Source of the DNA: Stylophora pistillata
Lineage: Eukaryota
NCBI RefSeq assembly: GCF_002571385.2
Contig: NW_019217988.1
Location: forward strand, 188,627-251,233
Direction: 5' to 3'
Length of the DNA stretch: 62,607 nucleotides
The translations under genes were made by a program, and so were the position numbers. Shown one piece after another: positions 33,401-36,400 of this stretch. Within the stretch, counting starts at the first letter, position 1. Every line of letters starts with the position of its first letter. The notes under the pieces were generated by a model that made no database searches, was not told the DNA's origin, and saw only the letters and a list, made by a program, of their open reading frames with translations.

Positions 33401-36400
33401 TAACAGGAGGTTATGTGATTACATATCACCCAAATGCAACTGATCCCGAAAACCTTGGTGAACCCCTGACCGTAGACTTTACTCCACCCTTTAAAAGGAT
33501 TCGCATGGTACCTGATCTCGAAAAGGCACTGAATGTCAAGCTACCCCCTCCATCTGAGTTTGGGACCTCAGGTAATAGTTCAAGACTATTTACTTAGTTT
33601 ACCACATAAAAATTGTCTCTAGATGAAAATGCCAGCTACACCCCTAAAAGTTTTTTACTTTGATCTTGCTACCTGATCTTAAAAGTCATTGAATGTCAAG
33701 CTGCCTCTTCCATTTGAGATTGGGACGCCAGGTAATAGTTCAAGACTATTTATGTAGTTAATTACCAAAAAATTCTCTCTTTATGAAAATGCCAGCTAGA
33801 CCCCCAGAAAGTTATTGAATTGTTCACTATGCTTTGTAATTTGCACTAATGATATATTACTGATTGCTTTCAGAGACAAGGCAGATTTTAGATGATTTGT
33901 GTGTTAAACACGATGTGGAATGCAGTTCTCCCAGAACCACTACAAGACTTTTAGACAAAGTGAGCCTCACTTAATTTTTTTCCCCATAAATCATGTAATT
34001 TTAATTTTAGCCTTGTATCGAATGTATATGATGTAGTGGGTCAGAGGTTTTAAGAATACCACAAGTTTTGCCTTTAGGAGAGATGTGTTACATGAAAATT
34101 TGGCAGAGCATAAGGGTGGGAATTGGTGAAATTTTTTGTTTTGCAGGCAAGGGAATTTGAGATGAGTGAAATACTTGCAGGGAATAAGTTTTTCTATCAA
34201 AGTAGCAGGAAAGCAAAGAAAACTTGTGTATTTCACATGTTAATGCTGACACTGCAGGGCTGTGGTCTAGCAGTGCCCGGTGGCCCCTGGCACCTTACTT
34301 TTGCTCTTGGGTGACTCAGGAATCCTAGTTTTTTCATAAAAAGCATATGCTGGGCACCCTGGATTTCACGGTTTCAGAGCACTGGGCTCCCTTCAATTTT
34401 CTTAGAGCACAGCCATGCACTGGTTGAGTTTTCAATGGGAGCTGCATGGTATATTGATGGATATTTTTAATGGAATAAGTTGAAATGCTACACAAGTTAT
34501 TTAAATTATACTGTTGGTGCATCATGTAAATATATGATATGGTGGTACACCTCACTGGGCAAGTGACATAGCTACTAGGCTGTGACTGTCAACATAATCA
34601 TGTGAGGTTAGATTGAATTCCAAGTTCATCACAGCTCTTCCGTTATGATGGAGTGAAGCTGTTTCATGCCTTGGGAACAAACCATTCAGTCATGCACCTG
34701 TGGGAAACTAAGGACTTTCATTCGCATGTTTTTTATTAAGATGTTTTATTGGTCCAAAAGAACTGAGCACAGTGCAACAAATCACAATTCAAAATGGGCA
34801 ATAAGCTTGTTTTTTGGACACGGATGCTGAAAGATATTAAAACTCTGTGGCCTTGAAGCTATTACAAACTACTAACTTGATTTGTTTGTTTGTTTGTTTG
34901 TTTTTTTGACAGCTTGTCGGTGAATTTCTTGAGGAGACCTGTGTCAGTCCAACATTTCTCATTGATCATCCTCAAATAATGAGCCCACTTTCAAAGTGGT
35001 AAGTAGCATGCATGATTCAACGCATCTTTGAACTTTGGATTTTTATCACCACTCAATAAGTGGATCATTATACTCTCCTTTACTTGTTGCTTAATGTCAT
35101 TAGAACCATGGTGTGGTGTCCAAAGCTGTAAGCTAATGAGCTTGTGGGCAAGACCTCTCTTAACCTCACCAGGCAAGTTTGCTGTAGTTCAGTTACTGCA
35201 GACTATTTCACGTGAGGTGATAGGATTATCCTTGTTGCATACGATAGCTGCCACCTGACAGCACTGATTAGGTGATGGCTTGTTTTTTTTCTAGGAAACA
35301 CATTTACAACCCGTAGAAAAACAGAGATGTTCTGAAATGTGGCACAATATTAGGGACCCAACCCATAACTCATCTTTTCTCCTACTGTCCAGCCATGTAA
35401 TAATTTTCATTCATTTTATCATTATTCCTCTTTGTCTTTTCAGGCATAGATCGGTCCCTGGTCTTTCTGAAAGATTTGAGCTGTTTGTTTGCCGTAAAGA
35501 GGTGTGCAATGCGTACACTGAATTGAATGACCCTGTTGTACAGAGAGAGATGTTCCAACTTCAGGCCAAGGTAAGCAGAAATCCGTTTTCTTTAATAGAG
35601 CGCTCACGATGGAGTGTCGTAAAACCAAAACCAGAGTAATCGCAATGGCCAATCAGAAGAAAGAAAAATACCTTGAAGAGCCAATGAGAACTCAAAGTTA
35701 TAAAAACCTACCAAACTGCCCAAAGTGCGGGAAAATGCGGCCGACCAAGTCGTGGTTGGTTTTAGTTTTGCATCTGATTGGTCGAGAGAGTGGCACGAGT
35801 TTTCTGGACCAATCACAGAGAGTAAGCAAAATCATGGCAATCTCGAATCACTCTCGACACTGAATTGAAAATTACCCCATATTTGGAGAGTTGAGGAAGT
35901 CGAATCACTATTTATTTCAAATTCTTTTGGCATTACGACGTTTATGGAAATGTGCTGAGACCTTACTTGGGCATGTGACATAGCCTAACGGCAATAATTG
36001 TCAACTAAATCACGTAAGGTAAAAGTGATTCCCAAGTTCATCACAGCAGGCGCTATTTAATGGACTTAAGCTGTTTCATGCCTTGGAGACATATACGATA
36101 TTTTCCCGCGGTGCAATGAACGTCAACGACTTATCATTTAGCTAGAGGTGAACTCGAAACACGAGTGCAGAAGAGAGGCAGTTTTAATGTTGACGTGTTG
36201 GAAGAACTGGGTAGTCGTAGAAAGTACTTCGAATGATTGTTTAAAAATCGAAATATTAAGTAATCGCAACATCTTTTTAAATATGGGATGATAACACAAG
36301 GGGCCGACGACTTATCTGTGGATGTAAACTGCTTCAGCGCGGGAAAAAGTGAGTTGCTAAGTCGCGATTGTTACACGTTCCAGAGAATTGGCCTAGACAT

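What the first reader, a model, noticed from the sequence alone, without database searches (positions are those of the whole stretch)
34549..36094. Two paralogous intronic H/ACA snoRNAs in KARS1 with an identifiable 28S rRNA target
Seen: ~134-nt elements in introns 12 and 14 share block-wise conservation (stems, pockets, ACA) while loops diverge, including a compensatory C-G to U-A change. This is the pattern of a structured RNA rather than a decaying repeat. The 3' pocket (UUCAUC / UUCAUGC) brackets an unpaired UN in the conserved LSU sequence GCGCAUGAA-U-G-GAU(G/U)AAC, and the ACA box is the canonical 14 nt away. From recall, this U is the site guided by human SNORA48 (U3797) and yeast snR86 (U2314). 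The H boxes are non-canonical (AGAUUG, AAAGUG). I do not know KARS1 as a snoRNA host.
Basis: partly seen in the sequence, partly recalled or inferred. Interest (0 to 1): 0.7.

Follow-up and report, generated by a model that had tools for sequence, protein, structure and literature searches.

The report
Coral SNORA48 guides plus retargeted paralogue
Introns of a coral lysyl-tRNA synthetase gene carry two copies of a small guide RNA related to vertebrate SNORA48, predicted to modify two conserved ribosomal RNA sites, plus a third altered copy that may aim elsewhere; real, but an ordinary kind of RNA.

Summary
The finding is real and mostly ordinary. The elements at 34549-34682 (intron 12) and 35960-36094 (intron 14) are two-hairpin H/ACA snoRNA genes, predicted orthologues of vertebrate SNORA48. 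Both pockets, not only the 3' one, pair with this genome's own 28S at the canonical 14 nt from the box: the 3' pocket 7+7 bp at the U3797 site, the 5' pocket 8+9 and 8+7 bp at the U3674 site. These are the two sites assigned to SNORA48 in frog and human, 123 nt apart in both. The H boxes fit the known ANANNGA variant. Only these two close copies were found in the genome. Its 5' pocket fits either the 28S U1523 site or an 18S site, at borderline significance. What is new: SNORA48 in a cnidarian (a 2016 catalogue lists it as vertebrate), a different host gene (KARS1, not EIF4A1), and a possible target switch. Mature RNA and the pseudouridines were not shown, and no orthologous introns could be obtained.

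The parts
34549..34682 (+). H/ACA snoRNA copy 1 (predicted SNORA48 orthologue), KARS1 intron 12. 5' pocket strands 34553-34561 and 34596-34603; H box AGAUUGA 34610-34616; 3' pocket strands 34624-34630 and 34663-34669; ACA 34677-34679
   Evidence: (z -2.5)
35960..36094 (+). H/ACA snoRNA copy 2 (predicted SNORA48 orthologue), KARS1 intron 14. 5' pocket strands 35967-35973 and 36008-36015; H box AAAGUGA 36022-36028; 3' pocket strands 36036-36042 and 36075-36081; ACA 36089-36091
   Evidence: (SNORA48 model 16.4 bits, E 3, below cut-off 50)
35163..35303 (+). Canonical H box AUAGGA 35220-35225, ACA 35298-35300, changed pockets; target uncertain
   Evidence: (z 7.0 and 5.3)
33874..33959 (+). KARS1 exon 12
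34913..34998 (+). KARS1 exon 13
   Evidence: (spliced joint)
35444..35570 (+). KARS1 exon 14
   Evidence: PF00152
36485..36628 (+). KARS1 exon 15
   Evidence: PF00152, E 1.4e-13
27426..37130 (+). Host gene: class II aminoacyl-tRNA synthetase with an OB-fold anticodon domain, read as lysyl (KARS1) from motifs known to me; about 16 coding exons, early boundaries approximate
   Evidence: the lysyl assignment rests on recalled motifs

Best explanation
The two intronic elements are H/ACA-type genes whose pockets pair with two 28S sites of this genome, and they are likely coral orthologues of SNORA48, predicted to be cut out of KARS1 introns and to guide pseudouridylation of the U3674- and U3797-equivalent uridines. 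Shown: structure, boxes, pocket-target pairing and site identity. Inferred from the established intronic H/ACA pathway: splicing, debranching and trimming, loading with dyskerin/NOP10/NHP2/GAR1, and the modification itself. The copies likely arose by intron-to-intron duplication after the family moved into this housekeeping gene. A third copy in intron 13 kept its stems while its pockets changed, so it is probably a retargeted guide (about 60-65%) rather than a dead copy.
For: Pocket scan against the genome's own 28S, 18S, U2 and U4: all four pockets of copies 1 and 2 have one best site, at least 10 kcal/mol ahead of the next; 0 of 40 shuffled target sets did as well for any of the four. Guide-shuffle control: 0 of 60 for the three pockets tested. 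The two target Us are 123 nt apart, the same as human U3674/U3797 and frog U2833/U2956 assigned to SNORA48. The human sequence context of Psi3674 matches the 5' pocket target, and both human sites are about fully modified. The Rfam SNORA48 consensus aligns end to end with copy 2 and shares both pockets and the 3' lower stem; the human sequence shows the same motifs (compared by eye). Block conservation. Only two close genomic copies. A de novo scan of all 15 introns found only these three elements plus one tandem-repeat artefact. Variant sites in two other DNA runs: 10 in 1117 flank bases, 0 in 410 element bases, p 0.04.
Against: The Rfam score is far below the family cut-off (16.4 vs 50 bits; copy 1 is not listed), and a genome-wide family search returned nothing. 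No mature RNA was seen: element bins had zero depth in 3 of 4 raw RNA runs and low depth in one run, where cover seemed to reach into flanking intron; these libraries probably do not retain 135-nt RNAs. Copy 2 alone folds weakly (z -1.3) and its whole-molecule minimum-energy fold is not the two-hairpin form. The variant test is weak: p 0.10 when low-depth RNA contigs are added, one of which shows a stem-breaking change in element 3, and the sites cluster. No orthologous intron from another species was obtained.
Confidence: 0.88

Rival explanations
1. The elements are H/ACA guides for the same two sites but arose by convergence or hairpin shuffling, not by descent from the SNORA48 ancestor.
For: Sub-threshold Rfam score. 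Pocket identity is forced by the conserved target. Hairpins are reported to evolve and move independently (PMC6984369).
Against: The same two sites occur in the same hairpin order with the same length (134-135 nt). Non-pocket sequence is also shared with SNORA48, including the 3' lower stem and the run up to ACA.
Confidence: 0.06
2. One or both copies are silent remnants (snoRNA pseudogenes), no longer processed.
For: No mature reads; ANANNGA rather than ANANNA boxes; weak fold of copy 2.
Against: Loops diverged by half while core positions are 94% identical, which needs selection on both copies. ANANNGA is a known box form. No variants in two DNA runs.
Confidence: 0.05
3. The elements are a dispersed repeat or miniature transposon.
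For: The same introns do hold high-copy repeats nearby.
Against: Two matches genome-wide (the tool warns counts are lower bounds). Depth over the elements in DNA runs equals single-copy flank depth, while the neighbouring repeat is hundreds of times deeper. Exact rRNA complementarity.
Confidence: 0.01
4. For element 3 only: it is a decaying third copy with no target, rather than a retargeted guide.
For: Its 3' pocket is a U run with no significant target (28 of 40 shuffles as good). Its 5' pocket is borderline (2 of 40) and split between two candidates. One low-depth contig shows a stem-breaking change.
Against: Canonical H and ACA boxes in register; 5' lower stem 14 of 14 identical to copy 1; upper stems rebuilt from new sequence and still paired; a compensatory A-U to U-A change in the 3' lower stem. 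It passed a de novo H/ACA scan.
Confidence: 0.35

Closest known systems
SNORA48 / ACA48 (Rfam RF00554, clan CL00037), vertebrate dual guide for 28S U3674 and U3797
   Same: Length, two-hairpin layout, both pockets, hairpin order, 14-nt spacing, 123-nt target spacing, intronic site in a translation gene, several tandem intronic copies (frog has 3 listed).
   Different: Host is KARS1, not EIF4A1. H box is ANANNGA, not ANANNA. The 5' pocket pairs more fully in coral (8+9) than in human, where by eye a U faces a U next to the target. The score is below the Rfam cut-off. A 2016 catalogue gives its range as vertebrates and no reported 5' target.
Duplicated snoRNA families with target switches (SNORA10/SNORA64, SNORA2/SNORA34; PMC6984369)
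   Same: Element 3 is a neighbouring paralogue with kept stems and a few pocket substitutions.
   Different: Here the new target is only predicted and ambiguous, and the second pocket looks orphan.
Yeast snR86 (and snR32), recalled as guides of the equivalent 25S sites U2314 and U2191
   Same: Recalled: same rRNA positions (2314 minus 2191 is also 123).
   Different: Two separate RNAs in yeast; snR86 is about 1 kb. The equivalence was not tested here.

Membership tests
Box H/ACA guide snoRNA | Hairpin-hinge-hairpin-tail fold with internal pockets | tested here: met
   Copy 2 folds correctly only hairpin by hairpin.
Box H/ACA guide snoRNA | H box in the hinge (ANANNA, or the minor ANANNGA form) and an ACA box after the 3' hairpin | tested here: met
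   copies 1 and 2 have ANANNGA, element 3 has ANANNA. That ACA lies 3 nt from the mature end is assumed.
Box H/ACA guide snoRNA | Bipartite antisense pocket placing a U about 14-16 nt from the box | tested here: met
   for copies 1 and 2.
Box H/ACA guide snoRNA | Stable mature RNA with defined ends | tested here: inconclusive
   no discrete product seen; libraries likely unsuited to small RNA; only 2-6% of each raw run was read.
Box H/ACA guide snoRNA | Binding of dyskerin core proteins and formation of the predicted pseudouridines | not testable with these tools
   Needs immunoprecipitation and Psi mapping.
SNORA48 (RF00554) | 3' pocket for 28S U3797 | tested here: met
SNORA48 (RF00554) | 5' pocket for 28S U3674 | tested here: met
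SNORA48 (RF00554) | Covariance-model score above the Rfam gathering cut-off (50 bits) | tested here: not met
   16.4 bits, E 3; searches give no hit. Formal Rfam membership fails, so orthology rests on shared pockets and stem sequence; that the model is vertebrate-weighted is my inference.
SNORA48 (RF00554) | Host gene EIF4A1 (vertebrate synteny; typical, not defining) | tested here: not met
   Host is a class II tRNA synthetase. No other copy was found by DNA or pattern searches. The coral eIF4A introns were not read directly.
SNORA48 (RF00554), element 3 | Pockets for U3674 and U3797 | tested here: not met
   neither site is among its top four hits. It is a paralogue by sequence, not a functional member.
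Dispersed repeat / MITE | Many genomic copies | tested here: not met

The most novel reading that the evidence does not exclude
Element 3 is a live paralogue that switched target by about four pocket substitutions from the 28S U3674 site to the look-alike U1523 site (GUGAAC[UA]UGCCUG) in the same register. U1523 is modified in human (88%), is variable and has been called 'human-specific', and had no guide in the two snoRNA tables searched. Coral would then show that the site is modified outside humans and supply a template for finding its missing animal guide, with an ancestral dual-guide SNORA48 beside its retargeted daughter in one host gene.
Probability: 0.25. Interest if true: 0.55.

Novelty: new member of a known kind. 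Interest (0 to 1): 0.35.

Why it matters
It pushes the two-target SNORA48 arrangement back to the cnidarian-bilaterian ancestor. It gives independent comparative support for the recent, weakly paired assignment of Psi3674 to SNORA48. It adds a host switch (EIF4A1 versus KARS1) that fits the 'constrained drift' model of snoRNA mobility. The third copy is a testable case of target switching after duplication. It also shows that Rfam misses these genes in corals. None of this changes how H/ACA RNAs are understood.

Tried and rejected
Rfam at gathering level: nothing over the elements; the genome-wide SNORA48 family search was empty. Metagenome pattern scans: 0 hits, then 10 hits, all judged chance, since none has the 5' hairpin by eye and none reached more than 11.6 bits with my model. 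A third genomic match to the 3' motif scored 8 bits and was rejected. A loose two-gap pattern gave 21 matches against 8 for the reversed control; 2 are the known copies, 6 of the other 19 were scored with the model and failed, and 13 were not scored. The custom model found no further paralogue in the window and could not be run genome-wide, which leaves distant paralogues open. RNA runs: no discrete snoRNA product; low-depth RNA contigs over copy 1 and element 3 extend into flank or exon and look like pre-mRNA, so they count neither way. The pair-count shuffle control with three sequences was not significant (48-57 of 500); only the slide control favoured the structure. No 5.8S was found, and the 5' domain of 28S and the 3' end of 18S were not in the target set; U1, U5, U6 and the minor snRNAs were not scanned. 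My first guesses that the 5' pocket site was human U3616 and that the element-3 site matched yeast U776 were wrong and were dropped. Earlier-findings look-ups were empty.

Full report
Setting. The window lies in a 398-Mb animal genome; runs that hold the stretch are labelled with one organism or 'coral metagenome', so I call it a coral. The region belongs to a class II aminoacyl-tRNA synthetase gene with an OB-fold anticodon domain (5 of 5 exons scanned hit PF00152 or PF01336); I read it as lysyl (KARS1) from recalled motifs. Exon reading gives 16 coding exons, and spliced reads confirm introns 13 and 14 as GT-AG.

The observation. Copy 1 (34549-34682) and copy 2 (35960-36094) share 96 of 135 columns (z 16, 0 of 500 shuffles). 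Stems, pockets and ACA are 72 of 77 identical, apical loops 20 of 40 (p 1.4e-7). Downstream flanks are unrelated; the upstream 100 bases show weak similarity (z 3.4). Copy 1 folds as two hairpins (z -2.5); copy 2 does so only hairpin by hairpin. The compensatory C-G/U-A pair is present, though with three sequences the shuffle control is not significant. A DNA search of the genome found 2 matches, the copies themselves, and DNA contig depth over the elements is single-copy while a neighbouring repeat is hundreds of times deeper. It is not a transposon.

Targets. I fetched this genome's own 28S and part of its 18S, U2 and U4. In both copies the 3' pocket pairs 7+7 around GCAUGAA[UG]GAUGAAC, and the 5' pocket pairs 8+9 (copy 1) or 8+7 (copy 2) around AUGUGAUU[UC]UGCCCAG; each guide strand starts 14 nt before its box. 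An energy-based scan put each best site at least 10 kcal/mol ahead of the next, with 0 of 40 shuffled target sets as good for each of the four pockets; shuffled guides gave 0 of 60 for the three tested. The two uridines are 123 nt apart.

Identity. Rfam gives only a sub-threshold SNORA48 match to copy 2 (16.4 bits, E 3, cut-off 50), but the alignment is full length and agrees in both pockets and the 3' lower stem. The supplementary table of PMC6984369 assigns SNORA48 to 28S U3674 and U3797 (frog U2833 and U2956, three copies), calling U3674 a recent assignment; both pairs are 123 apart. PMC6182160 lists Psi3674 at 99% and Psi-m3797 at 100% and prints the Psi3674 context, which matches the coral site. 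PMC4914119 lists SNORA48 as conserved in vertebrates, hosted in EIF4A1, with no reported 5' target. By eye, the human 5' pocket has a U facing a U next to the target, whereas the coral pocket pairs fully; the coral copies therefore strengthen that assignment. The H boxes AGAUUGA and AAAGUGA fit ANANNGA, which PMC1636440 models as a 10% variant. Formal Rfam membership is not met; orthology is my inference from shared pockets, order, length and stem sequence.

A third element. Intron 13 holds a paralogue at 35163-35303 with H box AUAGGA and ACA in register. It aligns to copies 1 and 2 above chance (z 7.0 and 5.3, 0 of 500 each), is single copy, and was recovered by a de novo scan of all 15 introns that returned the three elements and one tandem-repeat artefact. 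Its 5' lower stem is 14 of 14 identical to copy 1, while its pockets are 7 of 12 and 5 of 13. Its 5' pocket has two candidates: an 18S site GUGGAG[UG]AUUUGUCUGG (6+10 pairs, four wobbles, needs the upper stem to open; -33.0) and a 28S site GUGAAC[UA]UGCCUG (5+6 Watson-Crick pairs, one mismatch next to the U, same register as its paralogues; -29.8); 2 of 40 shuffles matched the best score. The 28S site is human Psi1523 (88%), described as variable and 'human-specific'; the number 1523 did not occur in the snoRNA tables searched (the PMC4914119 file is cut and two further files were not searched, so a guide may be listed there). Human has no listed modification between 18S 1347 and 1367. The 18S piece is fragmentary and I did not verify that it is host rather than symbiont. 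The 3' pocket is a U run without a significant target (28 of 40). I put element 3 at about 60-65% a live guide.

Mechanism. Shown: fold, boxes, pairing, site identity. Inferred from the established pathway: release from the spliced intron (the elements end 230, 140 and 390 nt before their 3' splice sites), trimming, assembly with dyskerin and partners, and isomerisation of the bracketed U. Movement of snoRNAs among broadly expressed hosts is the published norm (PMC3511168; PMC2655684), so KARS1 is unremarkable as a kind of host.

Evidence that is missing or against. Four raw RNA runs (2-6% of each read) show exon depth of tens but zero over the elements in three, and low depth in one, apparently from pre-mRNA; RNA contigs add nothing. 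These libraries probably lose small RNAs, so expression is neither shown nor excluded. Variant sites in two other DNA runs fall 10 in 1117 flank bases and 0 in 410 element bases (p 0.04), or 12 and 1 with low-depth RNA contigs (p 0.10); repeats and exons were left out of the count. No orthologue from another species was found.

Literature seen. Passages and supplement rows: PMC6984369, PMC6182160. Supplement rows only: PMC4914119. Passages only: PMC1636440, PMC8522698, PMC3511168, PMC2655684, PMC8240307, PMC8609340, PMC5824354, PMC10227372, PMC9941101, PMC10454564, 10.1101/2021.11.10.467884. Searches for SNORA48, for KARS as a snoRNA host and for cnidarian or coral snoRNAs showed no title or abstract start on a cnidarian SNORA48 or a KARS1 host; I saw listings only, and genome-browser annotations were not checked. 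Yeast snR86/U2314 and snR32/U2191 are recalled.

Verdict. A real, well-supported new member of a known kind, with a modestly interesting range extension, host switch and candidate retargeted paralogue. Interest 0.35.

Noticed in passing
window 35163-35303 (+): Third H/ACA paralogue with changed pockets; see parts and novel case.
   Followed up: yes
window 35172 to 35444: In one RNA run, 9 reads from 2 starts join a point inside element 3 to exon 14. The joint can be read as a GC-AG splice from CAG|GCAAGT, which would cut element 3; an AG with a pyrimidine tract lies about 70 nt upstream, so a cryptic exon is possible. A template switch on a 6-nt microhomology is equally possible.
   Followed up: partly
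window 44643-44781 (-): U4 snRNA gene, 124 bits.
   Followed up: no
window 33007-33074 (+): tRNA-like element in KARS1 intron 10 with a broken acceptor stem (33.7 bits); likely the head of a tRNA-derived repeat.
   Followed up: no
window about 34255-34415 and 35612-35890: Two dispersed high-copy repeats, read on both strands in RNA runs and very deep in DNA runs; the second has inverted arms.
   Followed up: partly
window 33521-33665 and 33681-33825: Tandem duplication (80% identical) covering the 3' end of exon 11 and its donor region.
   Followed up: no
window about 29170-29630: Tandem repeat with a unit of about 80 nt in intron 4; it gave a false H/ACA-like hit and a C/D-like motif pair.
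   Followed up: partly
window about 22960-25930 (+): Multi-exon membrane-protein gene just upstream of KARS1 whose open frames look like a PQ-loop protein (recalled motif, not scanned).
   Followed up: no
L026 (G000:C250): The 18S on this contig is split into two model matches and ends early; parts looked unlike animal 18S to me from recall, so it may be mixed with symbiont sequence.
   Followed up: no
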